A stretch of 64,000 nt of DNA from a phage. Shown here piece by piece: positions 29,099 through 36,700 of this stretch (position 1 is its first letter; every line of letters starts with the position of its first letter). The notes under the pieces are model-generated. The model worked only from the letters and a program-made list of their open reading frames with translations. It did no database searches and was not told the origin of the DNA. The DNA lies in the sequence record OZ335964.1, one strand, 5' to 3'. Both the position numbers and the translations under genes were made by a program.

Positions 29099-30073
29099 TT
29101 ACATCGCTAACAGAGAGTCCAGGTCATCCAGATCAGAAGCGGAGGAAGTACCGCCACCCAGGTCCAGAGATGCCATCAGATCATCAGCGGAAGAATCTGA
29201 CGCCGTGCTAGCTGCGTTAATACCAACTACAGTGCTAGCTGCGGTAATACCAGAATCGAATGCATTTAAAGCAGCGTCAAAATCGTCAAGCTGGCTGTTA
29301 ATCGCTGCCGCAGCACTGGAAGCCGCAGCACCAGCTACCATAGAAACGCCCATAGTTTTCTTAAATTTGGTTTCCAGTTCATCGAACGGTTTAAACTGGC
29401 TAGGCGCTACAATCTCTCCCAGGTCAACCATGTTTTCCATCAGATATTTCTGATATGCTTCGTCTTCAATTTTCGGAAGCTGTGATTGCTGCATGAAACG
29501 AGAATCATCATAGTTCTGGTGTTTATCAACCTTCTTAGCTTTCAGGAGGAAGTTAGCACCGGAGAACACACAAGTTACATCGACCGGAACTTCGCCCATA
29601 TCGGTATTCACGTTCACCATTGCAACGATCTTATCATAAATTTTCTGACCGAAGCGGAATTTGAATACCTTACCTTCATTTTCTGGTGCTTGAGGATCTT
29701 TCAGTACCAGAATATTTGCGTAGTAAGAGGCTTTACGCTTAATCAGTTGCCATTCGGTTTTGTCGGTATTGTACAGGTCTTTTTCGTTAATATATTTGCA
29801 CACAGGGCAAGAATCAAAATCACCGTGGGTGCTGGAGCAGTTTTCCCAATACCATTTTCCATTAACTTTGAAGGAATGGTTTACCAGTTTCACAATCGGC
29901 AGACCGTCTTCTGTCTTAGACGGCAGGAAGCGAATCAGGGCTTCACCGTTACCTGCTGCATCAGTCTTAATCTTCCACTCTTTCGGGTCTTCTTTGGAGA
30001 AACCGTTGCCACCTTTCAGTGCGGCCAGTTGAGCTTGCAGTTTGGAGCTATCTTGACGACGAAACATGTTCAT
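29099..30073 (-). CDS. 32: single-stranded DNA-binding protein gp32
   Basis: 324 aa; ALIRFLPSK, NGKWYWENCSSTHGDFDSCPVC, ENEGKVFKFRFG closely match T4 gp32 including the Zn site. Confidence 0.9.
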   Translation of the reverse strand: MNMFRRQDSSKLQAQLAALKGGNGFSKEDPKEWKIKTDAAGNGEALIRFLPSKTEDGLPIVKLVNHSFKVNGKWYWENCSSTHGDFDSCPVCKYINEKDLYNTDKTEWQLIKRKASYYANILVLKDPQAPENEGKVFKFRFGQKIYDKIVAMVNVNTDMGEVPVDVTCVFSGANFLLKAKKVDKHQNYDDSRFMQQSQLPKIEDEAYQKYLMENMVDLGEIVAPSQFKPFDELETKFKKTMGVSMVAGAAASSAAAAINSQLDDFDAALNAFDSGITAASTVVGINAASTASDSSADDLMASLDLGGGTSSASDLDDLDSLLAM

Positions 30074-30133: not shown

Positions 30134-30730
30134 TTAATTGCTTGTCAATACTTTATCAATTATATCTAACAGTTTTGGCTTTCTATTTTCAAATTCTAAC
30201 ATCTCTTCGGGAGAAATGTCAACTACTTCTGTTTTGTTGAAAAAGTTTGGGTCTATAGCATCAGCAACAAAGTTTCTCGCAAGTGCTGCCGCTTTCTCAT
30301 GAACATATATTCCCAAATATATCAACTTCTTTCTTTCGACCTGAATATTGGCAACATATTTACCATCTCGTTTATAAAGACTAACACCGATATATTCAGA
30401 CGATCGACCTTTCTGTTTACCCATATTTCTTGAGTTTTGTTGCTCGTTCGCATCTCTCAAGTTTTCAATCCTATTATCTGTTATAATTCGGTTAACATGG
30501 TCAACGTATTTTGGCATGTATCCATGATGCATAAAGAAAATTATTCTATGCTCTTTATGATGTTTACCATCGATACACACCAATCTGTATCCATGACTAG
30601 GATTAACTCCACCCGCTCTAGATCCGACTTTATGCTTTCTGTTTGTCGATATCTTGCGAATCAGCTTACCGTTATCATATTTAAAGAGTTCATGACAACG
30701 AGCATACAATTCAGGATCATATGTTTTCAC
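30134..30730 (-). CDS. HNH homing endonuclease with AP2-like domain
   Basis: 198 aa; HNH_3 motif VDHVNRIITDNRIENLR plus AP2-like SEYIGVSLYKRDGKYVANIQV; sits between 59 and 32. Confidence 0.7.
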   Translation of the reverse strand: MKTYDPELYARCHELFKYDNGKLIRKISTNRKHKVGSRAGGVNPSHGYRLVCIDGKHHKEHRIIFFMHHGYMPKYVDHVNRIITDNRIENLRDANEQQNSRNMGKQKGRSSEYIGVSLYKRDGKYVANIQVERKKLIYLGIYVHEKAAALARNFVADAIDPNFFNKTEVVDISPEEMLEFENRKPKLLDIIDKVLTSN

Positions 30731-31394
30731 CTTTTAACCTCGATATTTCTTTACACTCTTTAACTACTTTAACAAATAATGCTCTTGCTTTTGCGGCGTC
30801 AATAACAAGTAGTTTCTTGTACGCCTTCATTTTAACACTATAAGTTTGCCAAATCAAGTCTTTGGCTACCTTGTCGTGTTCGTCGATTATATTTAGAAAG
30901 CTATCTAACAACATAAACGACTCAAACGATATAATCCGATTTTGCAGTAGTTTAAAGATACCGCTAGTTTCGGTTGCGGGATTGTATGTAATTAGCTCTT
31001 TAAGAGTAACCCCGCGTTTCTCGGAGAAGTATACCAGACTTTTAATGTCATCGTCAAATCTTGTTGCTGCATCAGTGATCTTACCGATATACTCCATGTA
31101 AAATCCGTATGCGTCAACATCAGTGATTTCGCCTACCCATGCATCGGTATTAGCTACCAGATTGCTTAGGAATAGGAAGTATAATTCTCTTAGATTGTAC
31201 TTTTCCGCTAATTTCGCGAAATAATACTTATCTCTGCGTTTATTGAATGCGGCATCAGATAACCGCATCCTCCAATTGTATTTTACGCAATCGTAACGCC
31301 CGTTCATATGAGCTTTCATCATGCAATATAACATATACACAGATTTAGCATTAATTCGCATATCTGGATCTGGAGGAAGACGGTTTCTGATCAT
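30717..31394 (-). CDS. 59: helicase loader gp59
   Basis: 225 aa; KSVYMLY, MNGRYDCVKYNWRMRLSDAAFNKRRDKY, FLSNLVAN, SFMLLDSFLNIIDEHD closely match T4 gp59. Confidence 0.85.
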   Translation of the reverse strand: MIRNRLPPDPDMRINAKSVYMLYCMMKAHMNGRYDCVKYNWRMRLSDAAFNKRRDKYYFAKLAEKYNLRELYFLFLSNLVANTDAWVGEITDVDAYGFYMEYIGKITDAATRFDDDIKSLVYFSEKRGVTLKELITYNPATETSGIFKLLQNRIISFESFMLLDSFLNIIDEHDKVAKDLIWQTYSVKMKAYKKLLVIDAAKARALFVKVVKECKEISRLKGENI

Positions 31395-31403
31395 ACATAC
31401 CCC

Positions 31404-31673
31404 TTAAATATCGAGAGTGTTGGTCGGTTCGTCGATCACTCCCTTCCTGAGCGTTCTATTTACTATACATTCTTGTGTGATCTTGTCAATAATGGACACC
31501 GGAATATATTTCTGATAGTGACCATATTCTATAGAGTTTTCCTCTACAAACTGCGTTGTCGCTTCAAGATAGGTCAATCCCTCTTCAACAACTAGTTTTT
31601 CGATTGCAAGACCGTTTGCTGTTTTGTTCGCGGCTTTTACCGCATGTTCATTAAGCATTGAACACCCGATCAT
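31404..31673 (-). CDS. 33: late transcription co-activator gp33
   Basis: 89 aa; GLTYLEATTQFVEENSI matches T4 gp33 GMSYLEATTAFLEENSI; C-terminal TNTLDI conserved. Confidence 0.7.
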   Translation of the reverse strand: MIGCSMLNEHAVKAANKTANGLAIEKLVVEEGLTYLEATTQFVEENSIEYGHYQKYIPVSIIDKITQECIVNRTLRKGVIDEPTNTLDI

Positions 31674-31926
31674 AGAGTTCTACTGCTTCGTCGCGTTCTG
31701 CTTCGAAGGTTTCGCGCTGTTGTTGGTGATACAGTTTAAACAGAATGCCCCACATTTTACCGTCTACGCCTAATTCTTCTTTAGCACGCTGCTTTATCTC
31801 TTTGATCTTATCGCCGTATGCTTCTTGAATGGTTTTCTGATCGCTGGCTTCTTTAATCAGTTGTGCCAGGGTATTTCCGTGCACTGCTTCGTCAAATACT
31901 ACTTTTTCTTTTTTCTGTTCAGTCAT
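31651..31926 (-). CDS. dsbA: DsbA-like dsDNA-binding protein (by synteny)
   Basis: 91 aa acidic/basic helical protein between 33 and rnh, as T4 dsbA; sequence identity not verifiable from memory. Confidence 0.4.
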   Translation of the reverse strand: MTEQKKEKVVFDEAVHGNTLAQLIKEASDQKTIQEAYGDKIKEIKQRAKEELGVDGKMWGILFKLYHQQQRETFEAERDEAVELYDRVFNA

Positions 31927-31930
31927 AATA

Positions 31931-32530
31931 TTAACCCTCTTTAGTCATTAATTGAAAACCACGTTCAGCTTTTGAGATTTCGCTAGGACGTAAATCGTCA
32001 CCCACATATTCTAGCATCATTTCTCGGATAATGTCAAGTGCTTTTTCATCACCTGATTTTAACTCGAACTCAAGTTCATAATGAGCAGTGTCGCCAATTC
32101 CTTCGCCTACTTTGCCATAATAGAAAGTGTCTTTGCACATTTCCACTATACCACAATCCATATCTAGAGTCAATGACTTGCGATATGTCATTACTTGCAT
32201 TATTGTAGTGATATAGTCGGAGTTTACCCCTAGACTATCAATAAAATGGACGAACTCATCCCAATTTGAAAATGTAATTTCCTCGCGGTTGAATAGTCCA
32301 GATTCATTATCACCAATTTTGACCATGATCTCTGATTTTCTACAGTCAAGTCGTGCATAAATTCCTTTTTGACGTAGAGCATGATCTTCGGTATCATAAT
32401 AAAATTCGTGTTTTAGAATGTTATCTCGGTCTAAGAGATTGTACCCGTCATACATTGCCACCCACAAATCACAGATGGTTTCGACGCCAATTTGTGAGTG
32501 TGCATAGTATTTTAATTCAAGTTCTTTCAT
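31931..32530 (-). CDS. CYTH-domain protein (triphosphate tunnel metalloenzyme / CyaB-like)
   Basis: 199 aa; N-terminal ELELKY (ExExK signature) and C-terminal acidic strand YELEFELK; not in T4 between dsbA and rnh. Confidence 0.5.
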   Translation of the reverse strand: MKELELKYYAHSQIGVETICDLWVAMYDGYNLLDRDNILKHEFYYDTEDHALRQKGIYARLDCRKSEIMVKIGDNESGLFNREEITFSNWDEFVHFIDSLGVNSDYITTIMQVMTYRKSLTLDMDCGIVEMCKDTFYYGKVGEGIGDTAHYELEFELKSGDEKALDIIREMMLEYVGDDLRPSEISKAERGFQLMTKEG

Positions 32531-32540
32531 GTGTCAACCC

Positions 32541-33488
32541 TTAGAACTCACCAATTTTCTGCAACATTTTAACTAACGCATTTGTTACAAAATAGTTATA
32601 AATTTTACCGCGTGGTGCTGGTTTAGATTTTTCCCATGACTCCAGAATCTGGTTCTGAATATCATCTGGGATGTAATCAAAATCAATAAGTTCGCGGTTT
32701 TCGTCAAAGCGTCGTGCTTCTTCCTCTGTCATCAAAGACTTTGGATCTTCGGCATCGAAAATTTGCTCTAACCATTTGGTCGCAACTGGTTTAGCTCGCT
32801 CCCCTTCCAGTCGAGAGATAATAAAATCACTACGACATTTGACAGAAGCTACACCGTCTTTTGCGTCACCCTTAACACATTTTACCATAAGGTCTTTGTA
32901 AGGACTACCATATTTGCATTTCTTCCATGCTTTCTGTACTGGCGCCCACTGTTTCACGTTTTTGTATTTGTGCAACTGTGTGTAGTCACCATCACCGGAG
33001 TTGATCAGCACCTGACGACCTTCTACAGAAAACTTTTTAGTTAACACAGCGATTATATCATCCGCTTCAACTTTGTCAACCTTAATAACGTGATAAGGCA
33101 TGTTCTCTTTAAACTCTTCTGTGATCTTATTGATCGCAGCAAAGATCATCTCCCAATCACGCGGGTCTGCGTCTCGCTTTTCCTTGCGGTTACGCTTGTA
33201 ATAAGGTGCGATATCACGTCGCCAGTAACCTTTGCTTGAATCAAAAGCAAGTACCGTAATCGGGTATTGCTCTTTGAATTTTGTCATATTATAACGCATG
33301 GTGTCAAGAATAAGATGACGGATCATGCCTTCACTAATAGGATCTTCCGGTTTAAAGGTATGCGAGATAGTAGCAATCATAAGCTGCGACATATCAATCA
33401 AATGCACACCTTCCGGCAGTTTATCTTCTGGATCATCGAAGAAATCATTAAGTGTAGCGGTAGTTTTTGTAAACGGGTTATACGTCAT
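32541..33488 (-). CDS. rnh: RNase H (5'-3' exonuclease, FEN-1 family)
   Basis: 315 aa (T4 305 aa); GYWRRD, YYKRNR, ADDIIAVLTKKFS, SGDGDYTQLHKY, ASVKCRSDF, IDFDYIPD, PRGKIY match T4 RNase H. Confidence 0.85.
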   Translation of the reverse strand: MTYNPFTKTTATLNDFFDDPEDKLPEGVHLIDMSQLMIATISHTFKPEDPISEGMIRHLILDTMRYNMTKFKEQYPITVLAFDSSKGYWRRDIAPYYKRNRKEKRDADPRDWEMIFAAINKITEEFKENMPYHVIKVDKVEADDIIAVLTKKFSVEGRQVLINSGDGDYTQLHKYKNVKQWAPVQKAWKKCKYGSPYKDLMVKCVKGDAKDGVASVKCRSDFIISRLEGERAKPVATKWLEQIFDAEDPKSLMTEEEARRFDENRELIDFDYIPDDIQNQILESWEKSKPAPRGKIYNYFVTNALVKMLQKIGEF

Positions 33489-33490
33489 AA

Positions 33491-33676
33491 TTAAGTTCTC
33501 TCCACTCTCACAACAACAGACTCATCAAACGAGCTAGATACTTCACGATCATACCCGTATTTCTCCATAACTCGCAGAATTGCATTGTTTAATTCGGCAC
33601 GGAAATAATTGTAATCCTTATCTGGGATTCTGTCAACTATCCATTTTGCACCGTCTGACAAATCAACTTTAACCAT
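33491..33676 (-). CDS. hypothetical small protein
   Basis: 61 aa, coupled to rnh. Confidence 0.4.
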   Translation of the reverse strand: MVKVDLSDGAKWIVDRIPDKDYNYFRAELNNAILRVMEKYGYDREVSSSFDESVVVRVERT

Positions 33677-33712
33677 AATAACATCCTCTCTTTATTTGTC
33701 AAGCCTTCATTT

Positions 33713-33720
33713 TATAAATA
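33713..33720 (+). promoter_or_regulatory. T4-type late promoter
   Basis: Exact TATAAATA ~29 nt upstream of gene 34 ATG. Confidence 0.6.
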
Positions 33721-33748
33721 ATCTCATACTATAACAGGAGATCATATA

Positions 33749-36700
33749 ATGGCAGATTTATTAAATCAACATTTTAAAGCCACATTTGGCTTTGATGCTG
33801 GTAACGAAAAAGTCGTTAATGTAGCACTTGCAGATAAGAACACTCTCACTGATGCCGTTAACGTCGAATTTTTCAATTACCATAACGGTATTACGCAGTA
33901 TGACACAACTCGCGGTTATGATCAATACGGTACTGCAATCTATCAAAACCGTCCTTACTATGCAAAAGAAGATATCGCAAAACCAGCCGGAGAATTTGAT
34001 CCGACTAAATGGCAAGCACTGCGTACTGATCCACGTTGGGATTACATTGCAGCGACGTCCGGCGATACTCCCTTAAAGTCCGGTGATTATATCGCGGCGG
34101 ATTGCCAATTTGCAAACTTGACTTTCTCTATGCCTAACAAACCAGCCGAGGGAGATACTATAACAGTAAAAGATATCGGTGGCAAGTGTGGCGTAAACGA
34201 ATTATCGTTCCTTAGTTCCGGTCATGAGTTCTATCATAACGGAAACGTGTATAATCGCAAGTGGTATTGCACTACCCCTTATTCTATGGTGTATTTCATC
34301 TTTGCTCGTAACCGTTGGCATGTCTATCAGACTGGAACGGAGCCGCGCGGGGTATATGCACAACCAGCGATCGATCCTATCCAGATGCAGAACGGCGATC
34401 AGATATTCCGTCGCAGTGCGTTAGGTGAAATCAGTCTCGTGTTGCCTAAATTCGCTAATAATGGTGATGTGGTTTATACCACGGATCTGGATGGTCTGAC
34501 AGCAACCAACCACGTTACGATCAAGACTCATGAAGGAGCGCCGGATCATTCAATTGGCGCGGCTGGCGTGAAAGAGATTGTTGGTAAACGTAGCGGTCAT
34601 GGTGCATTCATCTTTGATATTGCAGAAAACTTATGGCGTGTCTGGGATGGCGACCAGTCTGTTCGTTTAAATCCGATTGTATCGGATACCCGTTTATCTC
34701 CGAATAGCTATGTTGCTGTATTTGGTGACAAAGATGTTACTCTGACTCTTCCTAGCAATGTAGAAATTGGTGACCGTATTCAGGTATCTATGCAGTATAT
34801 GCACGGAAACCAGAATTGCAAAATCGTAACTGCTGACGCAGATACAAAAATTCTTATGCAAAAGAATATGTTACAATTCCCTAAACGCAGTGAATACCCA
34901 TTCAACGGCGTTAATACATGGGGCGAAGTAACAGAATTATCATTCAATGCAGAGAAAGATTATGTTCCTTATCTGGAGTTCTCTTATACAGAAGGTGATG
35001 ACGGTAAGAAACACTGGTTGATTGCACATGCTCACCCGATGGTTGAACGCGTCGATCCTAAGCGTAAAGCGCGTGTAGGTGTTATTGCACTGGCTACTCA
35101 GGAAGAAACCAATAAAAACCATGAAGATAATCCTAACGATGAAGTAGCAGTTACCCCAAAAATGCTGGCTAACAAAACCGCAACCGAAACACGACGCGGT
35201 ATTGCTCGCATTGCTACTCAGGCGGAAACTCATCAAAATACTGGTTCCAACTTCCTCGATGATGTTATTGTTACGCCTAAAAAGCTGAATAACTGCGTTG
35301 CTACCGAAGAACGACGCGGGGTACTGGAAATCGCTACCCAGAATGAAACTAACGAAGGCTTAGACGATACCCGCGCTATTACTCCTAAGAAATTAGAAGA
35401 ACGTCGCGCTAGCGAAACTCTGGCAGGGATCGCGGAAATTGTAACTAATGGCGGTAAAGCTGCAACCGTTCGCGGTCAAACTGGCACTGGCATTTATGAT
35501 ATTAATGACCATGCTAAGATTGTTACCCCGCATAACCTGAATGAAGTTAAAGCTACCGAAACGTCTCGCGGTGTGGGTTATCTGGCAACTGATGCAGAAG
35601 TGCAAGGAGCAACGGAAACAACGCCACAAGATGCATTATTCATCACTACCCGTACTTTAACTAAGCGCACAGCAACAGAAACACGCACCGGGATCGCGGA
35701 GATTGCAACTCAGGAAGAAACCAACTTAGGGCAAAGTGATAACCATATTGTTACGCCTAAAAAGCTGCATACTCGCCGTGCTACTGAAACACTTCACGGT
35801 TTGGCTGAAATTGCCACACAAGACGAGTTTGACGCAGGACGCGATGATGCTCGCATTTCTACCCCGTTGAAGATTAAAACTTTCTTTGAACGTGCACAAC
35901 GTCTGAAAGTAGATCCGACTCAAGGGCTTAATCTTGAGGGTAATTTGTGGGATGGTATCACGATTCGCGGTTTGGATGCAAATGAAACCACTAAAGGTGT
36001 TGCTAAAGTTGCTACCCAGCAATTAACCGATGAAGGTCAAGATGATACTACCATTATCACGCCGAAAAAGCTACATGCTAAAAAGGCAACAGAAGATAAA
36101 GAAGGTATTATTCGAGTTGCTACAGAAGAAGAGGCTAAAGGTGGTGATTTAGGTAATGTTGCAATCACTCCTAAAACCTTTAAACTGGTTGTTCAGGATG
36201 CAGAAGACTGGAAAGCTACCGAAGGACGACGCGGATTCCTGAAAGTATCAACCAAAGAAAACTGTTTCGTTGGTGACAATTTACAGGGTTCTACTCAAGC
36301 ACTTGAACAATACCAGCATGAAGGGATTGCCGTAACTCCACGCGGTTTAAACTATGCTCTTGATAATTTCTTACCGAAAATGGCAACCGCTCAGAATAGT
36401 TTGAAATTAGGCAACGTAGAGGCCGCTAAATGGGCGCGTAGAGACGTAGATCAGGTTATTGAGTCCAACTATACCTTTAATAAAAAAGTCACTGTAAAAG
36501 GCGAATTAGAGGGATTAAAATCTGGATCGTTTGAAACTCTTTATATAACCAAAAATTCAACAGAAGAGGCGAGTACAGGGAATCTTGTTTTAGGTCTTCG
36601 TGGACAGAATGGTCATACCGGAATTGCACTGCATGGAACAACCGGAGACGTTGAGAACTCATGGGCTATGCTGGTAGGTGGCACTGGAACGAATCAAATC

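What the first reader, a model, noticed from the sequence alone, without database searches (positions are those of the whole stretch)
31931..32530. CYTH-domain protein inserted between dsbA and rnh
A 199-aa ORF opens with the ExExK signature (ELELK) and has a C-terminal acidic ELEFELK strand, both hallmarks of CYTH triphosphate-tunnel enzymes (CyaB adenylyl cyclase, triphosphatases). As far as I recall, T4 has no gene at this position. It could make or destroy a nucleotide signal, which would be relevant to signalling-based host defences.
Basis: partly seen in the sequence, partly recalled or inferred. Interest (0 to 1): 0.6.

Follow-up and report, generated by a model that had tools for sequence, protein, structure and literature searches.

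The report
Phage CYTH triphosphate-tunnel hydrolase gene
The ORF is a real, probably active CYTH (triphosphate-tunnel) phosphohydrolase kept between rnh and dsbA in RB49-like coliphages; the domain call is already in public annotation, but its substrate and role are unknown and most of the gene is unusually variable between otherwise near-identical phages.

Summary
A 199-aa ORF lies at 31931..32530 on the minus strand, with ELELK at residues 3-7 and ELEFELK at 152-158. The window is a Krischvirus (RB49/Phi1-like T4-type phage).

- **Active site:** all metal-binding glutamates and the catalytic arginine are invariant. The three published adenylate-cyclase signatures are absent. It is most likely a hydrolase, not a cyclase.
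- **Deviation:** the second Arg of the RxR motif is Asp/Asn in the whole phage clade.
- **Locus:** T4 indeed has no gene here. All 59 related phage genomes do (one frameshifted). Three metagenomic relatives, 32-48% identical, keep the CYTH-dsbA-33 order, with rnh upstream where the contig reaches.
- **Prior knowledge:** RB49's GenBank note ("similar to ygiF") and a 2006 paper already made the CYTH call.
- **Additional here:** residues 1-148 occur as at least four deeply diverged alleles joined to a near-identical C-terminus. Synonymous sites are saturated while flanks are 95-100% identical, and dN/dS is about 0.3.

The substrate is unknown; PPPi is only the default guess. A counter-defence role is possible but untested.

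The parts
31931..32530 (-). CYTH / triphosphate-tunnel metalloenzyme gene, 199 aa (homolog of RB49p245, PHROG 14893)
32510..32524 (-). ExExK motif (E3, E5, K7) on strand 1. E3 and E5 are predicted ligands of metal 2.
   Evidence: Invariant in the phage family and in cellular homologs. Equivalent to YgiF E4/E6 (PMC4641920; alignment).
32345..32359 (-). Y58-A-R60-L-D62 strand. R60 is the equivalent of the catalytic Arg (YgiF R56). D62 replaces the second Arg of the RxR motif.
   Evidence: Profile alignments place R60 on the first R and D62 on the second R. D (N in P0045) occurs in all phage-clade members; R in nearly all cellular homologs.
32057..32077 (-). E152-L-E154-F-E156-L-K158 on the last tunnel strand. 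E154 is the metal-1 ligand and E156 the metal-2 ligand.
   Evidence: E154/E156 are invariant and align with YgiF E160/E162 (PMC4641920).
31943..31984 (-). C-terminal SEISKAERGFQLMT segment (S183-T196), which contains the predicted plug helix
   Evidence: Helix H187-196. S186/K187 are invariant even against cellular homologs. The plug-helix concept is from PMC8233210.
32087..32530 (-). Variable module (codons 1-148). There are at least four allele classes, 42-63% identical in protein, and about 50-60% nucleotide identity to phage Skers.
   Evidence: Sliding identity. Nei-Gojobori pS 0.74 (saturated) against Skers, and dS 0.34 against RB49 versus 0.13 in the flanks; omega about 0.33. Allele matrix.
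31931..32086 (-). Conserved module (codons 149-199 plus stop). It is 94-98% identical in protein in three of the four Krischvirus allele classes (82-86% in the fourth) and 93-97% identical in DNA to Skers. It contains the dsbA Shine-Dalgarno (CCCTC on the + strand at 31935..31939) and a sigma70-like match at 32037..32008.
   Evidence: Sequence read. Promoter-like match (consensus match only).
32541..33488 (-). rnh (T4-type RNase H / 5'-3' exonuclease), immediately upstream. Its stop codon TAA overlaps the GGG of the CYTH ribosome-binding site.
31651..31926 (-). dsbA (late-transcription dsDNA-binding protein), starting 4 nt after the CYTH stop codon
   Evidence: PF11126 on syntenic genes.
31404..31673 (-). 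Gene 33 homolog (late transcription co-activator), overlapping the dsbA end
   Evidence: PF16805 on syntenic genes.

Best explanation
The gene encodes a catalytically competent, stand-alone triphosphate-tunnel metalloenzyme of the YgiF-like branch of the CYTH superfamily. It acts as a hydrolase, not a cyclase. By homology it should use the two-metal TTM mechanism. Metal 1 is held by E154 and the substrate's triphosphate. Metal 2 is held by E3, E5 and E156 (with E84 behind them) and activates a water molecule that attacks the terminal phosphate. R60 acts as proton donor, and K7, K71, R82 and R117 bind the phosphates. The substrate is a small molecule ending in a triphosphate. Inorganic tripolyphosphate is the default candidate because YgiF is the closest characterised relative (roughly 35% of my belief). 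However, the clade-specific Arg-to-Asp change at position 62 and the Krischvirus-specific Tyr58 make a different, organic triphosphate plausible. The gene lies in the same minus-strand gene string as orf61, rnh, dsbA, 33, 59 and 32, so it is probably expressed with the replication and late-transcription genes. It behaves as a non-essential accessory gene. Shown here: fold, family, residue conservation, synteny, and purifying selection with allele exchange. Inferred: catalysis, mechanism, substrate and timing.
For: Family and fold:
- Pfam CYTH above gathering.
- hhalign 99.8% against cellular YgiF-like proteins.

Active site:
- E3, E5, K7, R60, K71, R82, E84, R117, D134, E154 and E156 are all invariant across alleles that are only 31-60% identical.
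- They fall at i/i+2 positions of the predicted strands.
- Conservation is concentrated in the tunnel strands and plug helix (mean entropy 0.25-0.9), while the outer helices and loops vary (1.5-2.1).

Hydrolase rather than cyclase (criteria of PMC8233210):
- There is no room for an HF motif.
- The gatekeeper Arg R60 is present.
- The second Glu of ExE, E156, is present.

Real gene under selection:
- dN/dS is about 0.3.
- It is present in 59 of 59 related genomes.
- CYTH-dsbA-33 synteny holds in lineages whose dsbA/gp33 are only 66-80% identical, with rnh upstream in the two where the contig reaches.

Operon-like packing: a 10-bp gap after rnh and a 4-bp gap before dsbA.
Against: - No biochemical data exist for any phage member; literature searches found none.
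- D62 replaces an Arg that contacts substrate phosphates in ThTPase and AtTTM3, so PPPi binding may be altered.
- E. coli already has abundant PPPase activity from inorganic pyrophosphatase, and YgiF itself contributes little (PMC3440374). A pure PPPi-scavenging role therefore offers no obvious benefit to the phage.
- The CHAD domain that accompanies YgiF is absent.
- One isolate (G2494) has a frameshifted copy, so the gene is dispensable at least in the laboratory, unless that is a sequencing error.
Confidence: 0.7

Rival explanations
1. Counter-defence or signal-erasing enzyme. The same hydrolytic chemistry would be aimed at a triphosphate-bearing immune or stress messenger. Candidates include dITP of Kongming-type systems, pppGpp or (p)ppApp, thiamine triphosphate, or a 5'-triphosphorylated linear oligonucleotide. 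The allele diversity would then reflect an arms race with the host.
For: - The N-terminal 148 codons exist as at least four deeply diverged alleles swapped into a 95-100% identical backbone.
- The gene evolves much faster than its neighbours: 32-57% identity against 66-99%. I read such patterns as typical of genes at the phage-host interface (my inference).
- Triphosphate messengers do exist, for example dITP (bioRxiv 10.1101/2024.12.20.629578).
- D62 and Y58 suggest a substrate other than plain PPPi; an aromatic residue at this position stacks the organic moiety in ThTPases.
Against: - There are no PADLOC hits, and no paper links a phage CYTH to anti-defence.
- The only phage countermeasure reported in the Kongming preprint is a dNMP phosphatase, not a TTM.
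- Overall omega is about 0.3, with no sign of positive selection at pairwise level.
- The variation lies mainly in outer helices and loops, which could equally reflect relaxed constraint.
- Y58 is not conserved in the more distant syntenic homologs (V or I).
Confidence: 0.15
2. Polynucleotide 5'-triphosphatase. The enzyme would remove the gamma-phosphate from 5'-ppp RNA, either primase-made Okazaki primers handled by the adjacent RNase H or host/phage transcripts, to prepare them for degradation.
For: - The gene is fixed immediately downstream of rnh in the lineages where the upstream sequence is available, within the replication gene cluster.
Against: - T4 and other T4-like genera process primers without such a gene.
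- Gene adjacency in T4-type genomes is weak functional evidence.
- The C-terminal helix that plugs the tunnel in small-molecule TTMs is present and highly conserved.
Confidence: 0.08
3. Class IV (CyaB-type) adenylate or nucleotidyl cyclase that makes a cyclic nucleotide, as some GenBank records annotate it.
For: Several phage records label the ortholog 'adenylate cyclase'. The CYTH family includes CyaB, and some plant TTMs show trace cyclase activity.
Confidence: 0.03
4. A decaying or non-catalytic remnant with no enzymatic role.
For: The gene evolves fast, one copy is frameshifted, and it is absent from most T4-like genera.
Against: Every catalytic residue is invariant across alleles down to 31% identity. 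Omega is about 0.3. 58 of 59 copies are intact.
Confidence: 0.03

Closest known systems
E. coli YgiF (inorganic triphosphatase, CYTH-CHAD; PDB 5a60/5a61)
   Different: The phage protein has no CHAD domain (199 aa against 433). The second Arg of RxR (YgiF R58) is Asp62. Identity is only about 21-23%, so this is not a recent capture of the host gene. Activity is untested.
Stand-alone bacterial and archaeal TTM triphosphatases (NeuTTM, CthTTM, SaTTM; BH2851, GBAA_1210 structures)
   Same: They share the single-domain architecture of about 150-200 aa, the ExExK and ExE motifs, and the two-metal hydrolase mechanism.
Mammalian thiamine triphosphatase (W/YxRxR motif)
   Different: The second Arg is Asp. 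Y58 is confined to the Krischvirus alleles (V or I in the distant syntenic homologs). Sequence and structure are closer to YgiF.
CyaB / YpAC-IV class IV adenylate cyclases
   Same: Same superfamily and fold. This is the source of the 'adenylate cyclase' labels in some phage records.
   Different: All three cyclase-specific signatures are absent.

Membership tests
CYTH / triphosphate tunnel metalloenzyme superfamily (PF01928) | Profile-HMM match above the curated threshold | tested here: met
   32.7 bits against GA 23.2, residues 27-191. hhalign 99.8% to cellular CYTH proteins.
CYTH / triphosphate tunnel metalloenzyme superfamily (PF01928) | Eight-stranded antiparallel beta-tunnel fold | tested here: met
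CYTH / triphosphate tunnel metalloenzyme superfamily (PF01928) | N-terminal ExExK on strand 1 | tested here: met
   E3-L-E5-L-K7 is invariant and lies within strand E2-10.
CYTH / triphosphate tunnel metalloenzyme superfamily (PF01928) | Basic residues lining the opposite tunnel wall (RxR, K, R, R) | tested here: inconclusive
   R60, K71, R82 and R117 are invariant, but the second Arg of RxR is Asp62 (Asn in one lineage) throughout the phage clade.
TTM hydrolases (PPPase / ThTPase type) as opposed to cyclases | ExE on the last strand with both glutamates (metal 1 and metal 2) | tested here: met
   E154 and E156 are invariant and align with YgiF E160/E162 (criteria).
TTM hydrolases (PPPase / ThTPase type) as opposed to cyclases | Metal-dependent release of the terminal phosphate from a triphosphate substrate | not testable with these tools
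   Requires an enzyme assay.
YgiF-type CYTH-CHAD inorganic triphosphatase | C-terminal CHAD (polyP-binding) domain | tested here: not met
   The protein ends at residue 199, right after the plug helix. Many related cellular proteins of about 500 aa carry the extension.
YgiF-type CYTH-CHAD inorganic triphosphatase | Specificity for PPPi | not testable with these tools
   YgiF data are from PMC3440374. There are no data for the phage protein.
Class IV adenylate cyclase (CyaB / YpAC-IV) | HF motif four residues upstream of ExExK (HFxxxxExExK) | tested here: not met
   Only M1-K2 precede E3. Criterion from PMC8233210.
Class IV adenylate cyclase (CyaB / YpAC-IV) | First Arg of RxR replaced by a small residue | tested here: not met
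   R60 is invariant and aligned to the first Arg.
Class IV adenylate cyclase (CyaB / YpAC-IV) | Second Glu of ExE replaced by Ala | tested here: not met
   E156 is invariant.
Thiamine triphosphatase | W/YxRxR motif (aromatic platform plus two arginines) | tested here: not met
   The sequence is Y58-A-R60-L-D62. The aromatic residue and the first Arg are present, but the second Arg is absent. Y58 is not conserved in distant syntenic homologs.
Cet1-like RNA 5'-triphosphatase | Membership of the Cet1-like sequence family, or closest structural similarity to it | tested here: not met

The most novel reading that the evidence does not exclude
The rnh-CYTH-dsbA enzyme is a phage counter-measure that hydrolyses a triphosphate-bearing host alarm or immune nucleotide, such as dITP, pppGpp/(p)ppApp, thiamine triphosphate or a 5'-ppp oligonucleotide. 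The Arg-to-Asp change would retune the tunnel for that substrate. The repeated swapping of the N-terminal 148 codons among otherwise near-identical phages would be the footprint of an arms race, through escape from a host sensor or inhibitor or through a change of substrate. This would make it the first TTM-family anti-defence enzyme.
Probability: 0.12. Interest if true: 0.7.

Novelty: new member of a known kind. Interest (0 to 1): 0.3.

Why it matters
CYTH/TTM enzymes are ancient and widespread, yet the physiological role of the bacterial ones, including E. coli YgiF, is still unclear. None from a bacteriophage appears to have been studied; four literature searches here found no such study. 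This phage lineage has kept one in a fixed slot of its replication and late-transcription cluster while repeatedly exchanging most of the coding sequence. That gives a compact, genetically tractable system: a 199-aa protein, a phage that grows on E. coli K-12, and natural allele series. It could be used to ask what triphosphate compound matters during infection. If the substrate proves to be a signalling nucleotide, the result would add a new enzyme class to phage counter-defence. If it is plain PPPi, this is a minor metabolic accessory gene. Practically, the 'adenylate cyclase' labels in several GenBank records are probably wrong.

Tried and rejected
- **PADLOC:** no hit.
- **NCBIfam:** only sub-threshold noise.
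- **Rfam over 28-35 kb:** nothing.
- **IMG/VR scan with the clade alignment:** only three near-identical Krischvirus loci, so no new distant contexts.
- **AFDB50 fold search:** unavailable.
- **Literature searches:** CYTH or TTM combined with phage, anti-defence or Krischvirus returned no functional study of a phage CYTH. The phi1/RB49 comparison paper does not mention this gene.
- **Alignment register:** the single-sequence phmmer alignment to YgiF put Y58 opposite the catalytic Arg. I rejected that register because three profile-based alignments agree on R60 = first Arg and D62 = second Arg.
- **Extra DNA-level constraint on the conserved 3' third:** I considered an embedded promoter or RNA element and rejected it. 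Its dS (0.03-0.19) is not clearly below that of the flanks (0.02-0.23), so the segment simply belongs to the backbone.
- **Recent capture of host ygiF:** rejected at 21-23% identity. The nearest non-phage relatives are diverse cellular stand-alone CYTH proteins, for example an archaeal one.
- **Fast divergence from positive selection alone:** rejected, because synonymous sites are saturated while flanking genes are nearly identical.

Full report
**What is there.** The ORF list gives a 199-aa ATG-initiated ORF at exactly 31931..32530 on the minus strand. It sits in a tightly packed run of minus-strand genes. A 61-aa ORF lies at 33491..33676, rnh at 32541..33488, the CYTH ORF follows, then dsbA at 31651..31926, gene 33 at 31404..31673, gene 59 at 30717..31394, an endonuclease ORF at 30134..30730, and gene 32 at 29099..30073 (names from syntenic annotation). 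The rnh stop codon TAA overlaps the GGG of the CYTH ribosome-binding site. The Shine-Dalgarno of dsbA (GAGGG) is formed by the last two sense codons of the CYTH gene. The window is a Krischvirus. The 2.3-kb stretch matches 59 phage records at 90-97% identity, and those whose annotation I opened (RB49, Skers, G2494) are classified as Krischvirus.

**Is it a CYTH protein?** Yes, by every test available.
- Pfam CYTH (PF01928) scores 32.7 bits against a gathering cut-off of 23.2.
- A profile of the phage family against a profile of cellular CYTH and CYTH-CHAD proteins gives hhalign probability 99.8%, E 8.7e-28 over 189 columns.
- AlphaFold2 with a 14-sequence alignment gives mean pLDDT 91.8 and pTM 0.85, with eight long strands plus flanking helices.
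- Foldseek against the PDB returns only triphosphate-tunnel proteins at the top. E. coli YgiF bound to tripolyphosphate comes first (E 2e-12, TM 0.75).

The model is a CYTH tunnel, and E3/E5/K7 sit on strand 1.

**Residue-level reading.** The family alignment spans sequences down to 50% identity, and a wider one goes down to 22-30%.
- The invariant positions are E3, E5, K7, Y44, D46, R60, K71, R82, E84, R117, D134 (nearly), E154, E156, S186 and K187.
- Within strands they fall at i/i+2 spacing: E3/E5/K7/Y9, R60/D62, K71/G73, F80/R82/E84, T115/R117, C132/D134/F136/Y138, E152/E154/E156/K158. This is what is expected of side chains pointing into the tunnel.
- Using the YgiF and AtTTM3 structures and mutants (PMC4641920) and profile alignments, the equivalences are as follows. 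E3/E5/E156 correspond to YgiF E4/E6/E162 (metal 2, water activation). E154 corresponds to E160 (metal 1). R60 corresponds to R56 (catalytic proton donor). K71 corresponds to K69. E84 corresponds to AtTTM3 E90.
- Positional entropy is low in the tunnel strands and the C-terminal plug helix, and high in the outer helices (13-29, 90-99) and loops.

I therefore infer an active enzyme using the published two-metal mechanism. This is an inference from homology, not a measurement.

**Hydrolase or cyclase?** Vogt et al. (PMC8233210) give three signatures that separate class IV adenylate cyclases from TTM hydrolases. These are an HF dipeptide four residues before ExExK, a small residue instead of the first Arg of RxR, and Ala instead of the second Glu of ExE. 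The phage protein has only two residues before E3, keeps R60 and keeps E156. All three cyclase signatures are absent. The 'adenylate cyclase' product names in some GenBank records are therefore probably wrong.

**How it departs from its relatives.**
- It lacks the CHAD domain of YgiF (199 aa against 433).
- The second Arg of the RxR motif is Asp62. Every syntenic phage-clade member aligned has Asp, except one with Asn. The cellular homologs have Arg, with one Gln. In ThTPase both arginines contact the beta/gamma phosphates. In AtTTM3 the corresponding R54A mutation does not strongly reduce activity. The change is thus compatible with catalysis, but it removes a positive charge from the tunnel and adds a negative one.
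- The Krischvirus alleles have Tyr58 two residues before R60. In ThTPases this is the position of the aromatic residue that stacks the thiazole ring. The deeper syntenic homologs have Val or Ile there, so it is not a clade-defining feature.

These points leave the substrate open. PPPi is the default by nearest characterised relative (YgiF is PPPi-specific; PMC3440374). The same paper shows that E. coli's bulk PPPase activity comes from inorganic pyrophosphatase and that YgiF contributes marginally. A purely PPPi-scavenging role would therefore bring the phage little obvious benefit.

**Distribution and synteny.**
- tblastn against 50,697 phage records finds the protein in 59 records, the same count as the locus-level megablast search, including the divergent Skers. 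Nothing else passes E 1e-3.
- An exhaustive HMM search of 1.84 billion representative proteins finds only three clusters below 1e-30 and six below 1e-10. The remaining 230-odd hits are distant stand-alone CYTH proteins of about 200 aa or CYTH-CHAD proteins of about 500 aa.
- The three most distant clade members all come from metagenomic contigs, and each has dsbA and gene 33 immediately downstream. These are P0043, P0044 and P0045, at 48%, 37% and 32% identity. rnh lies upstream in the two contigs that reach that far (P0043 and P0045).
- In those phages dsbA, gp33 and rnh are 66-80% identical to the window's. The CYTH gene is thus an old resident of this slot that evolves about twice as fast as its neighbours.
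- The nearest non-phage relatives are ordinary cellular genes. One is archaeal, next to a PRK-family kinase. Another lies next to a Mur ligase. No recent donor is visible.

**Sub-genic mosaic (not in the finding).**
- Against phage Skers, the flanking rnh and dsbA DNA is 95-100% identical. Identity then drops to about 50-60% from the CYTH start codon to about position 32090, and returns to 93-97% for the last ~150 nt.
- Nei-Gojobori estimates: for codons 1-148 against Skers, pS is 0.74 (saturated) and dN 0.49. For codons 149-199, dS is 0.14. For rnh and dsbA, dS is 0.23.
- Against RB49, the N-terminal part has dS 0.34 against 0.13 in the flanks, with dN/dS 0.33. The corresponding values for rnh, dsbA and gene 33 are 0.00-0.07.
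- Among database proteins there are at least four N-terminal allele classes: the Phi1/RB49 type, P0034, the Skers type P0035/P0037, and P0042. They are 42-63% identical to each other. This is as far apart as they are from P0043, which comes from a much more distant phage. Three of the four classes carry a 94-98% identical C-terminal 51 residues, and the fourth (P0034) 82-86%.
- Saturated synonymous sites inside a near-identical backbone cannot arise from rapid positive selection alone. They indicate repeated import, or long-term maintenance, of old alleles, with one junction at the conserved 5' end and one at the HYELEFELK-coding segment.
- Selection on the module is purifying but relaxed (omega about 0.3).
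- The pattern is compatible with an arms-race gene, and equally with a tolerant accessory enzyme in a recombination-prone genome. I did not run site-specific selection or formal breakpoint tests.
- One isolate, G2494, has a 1-nt deletion at codon ~59 that splits the gene. This is either a sequencing error or evidence of dispensability.

**Comparison with what is known, and novelty.** The CYTH assignment is not new. The RB49 RefSeq record notes 'similar to P45267, P30871, HI1598, ygiF' for RB49p245. Nolan et al. 2006 list RB49ORF244c with a CYTH Pfam hit (PMC1524935). A few recent records call it 'inorganic triphosphatase' or 'adenylate cyclase'. PHROG 14893 is still 'unknown function'. I found no experimental or comparative study of it. 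A review of jumbo phages mentions CYTH triphosphatases only in passing, as possible NTP-degrading enzymes (PMC7824862). In the viral structure library the fold is otherwise seen mainly in giant-virus capping enzymes and a few uncultured phage proteins. I therefore class it as a divergent member of a known enzyme kind, with a public domain call and an unknown role.

**Verdict.**
- The cyclase option is disfavoured. The signal-destroying option remains open but has no positive evidence beyond fast, mosaic evolution and an altered tunnel residue.
- Most likely this is an active Mg2+/Mn2+-dependent terminal-phosphate hydrolase of a triphosphate compound (confidence about 0.7 for the chemistry, about 0.35 for PPPi as the substrate).
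- Interest is modest at 0.3. A specialist would not be surprised by a CYTH gene in RB49-like phages. The fixed locus, the clade-specific Arg-to-Asp change and the allele swapping still make it a reasonable candidate for a cheap biochemical and genetic test.

Noticed in passing
window 30134..30730 (-): A 198-aa ORF lies between gene 59 and gene 32 and overlaps the end of gene 59 by 14 nt. The syntenic ORF of the same length is annotated as a putative HNH homing endonuclease in Skers and G2494. RB49 has no gene there. T4 carries an unrelated GIY-YIG endonuclease, SegG, in the same slot. The 59/32 junction thus seems to be a recurrent landing site for different homing endonucleases.
   Followed up: partly
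window 33491..33676 (-): A 61-aa ORF lies between the divergent gene 34 and rnh. It is conserved in RB49 (RB49p247), Skers and G2494 as 'hypothetical protein' and absent from T4. dN/dS is 0.25-0.5. A sigma70-like match (TTGACA-16-TATTAT with TG) sits just upstream at 33702..33675 and could be the promoter of the whole gene string.
   Followed up: partly
window 31300..33800, minus strand: There are 20 sigma70-like promoter matches against 7.7 +/- 2.6 expected from shuffles, 14 of them on the coding (minus) strand. They include a perfect 12/12 consensus inside rnh (33079..33052), one overlapping the CYTH start (32537..32509), and one inside the conserved CYTH 3' end upstream of dsbA (32037..32008). 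These are consensus matches only and were not tested.
   Followed up: no
L010:1501-2096 (phage vB_EcoM_G2494, MK327935): The CYTH ortholog is split into 66-aa and 130-aa ORFs by a 1-nt deletion in the codons for A59/R60. The 130-aa fragment also appears as database proteins (P0040; a 130-aa BFVD entry). It is either a pseudogene or a sequencing error.
   Followed up: partly
L011:4797-6606 (archaeal metagenome contig): The closest non-phage relative (P0046, 201 aa) lies directly downstream of a PRK-family (phosphoribulokinase/uridine kinase) gene in an archaeal contig with Sec61-beta and RIO1 neighbours. An RNA ligase and a Nudix gene are nearby. The arrangement is reminiscent of the kinase-TTM fusion of plant TTM1/2.
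   Followed up: no
window 31404..31673 (-) vs L009:3694-4032: The gene 33 homolog here is 89 aa, whereas T4 gp33 is 112 aa by its annotated coordinates. The difference was not examined.
   Followed up: no
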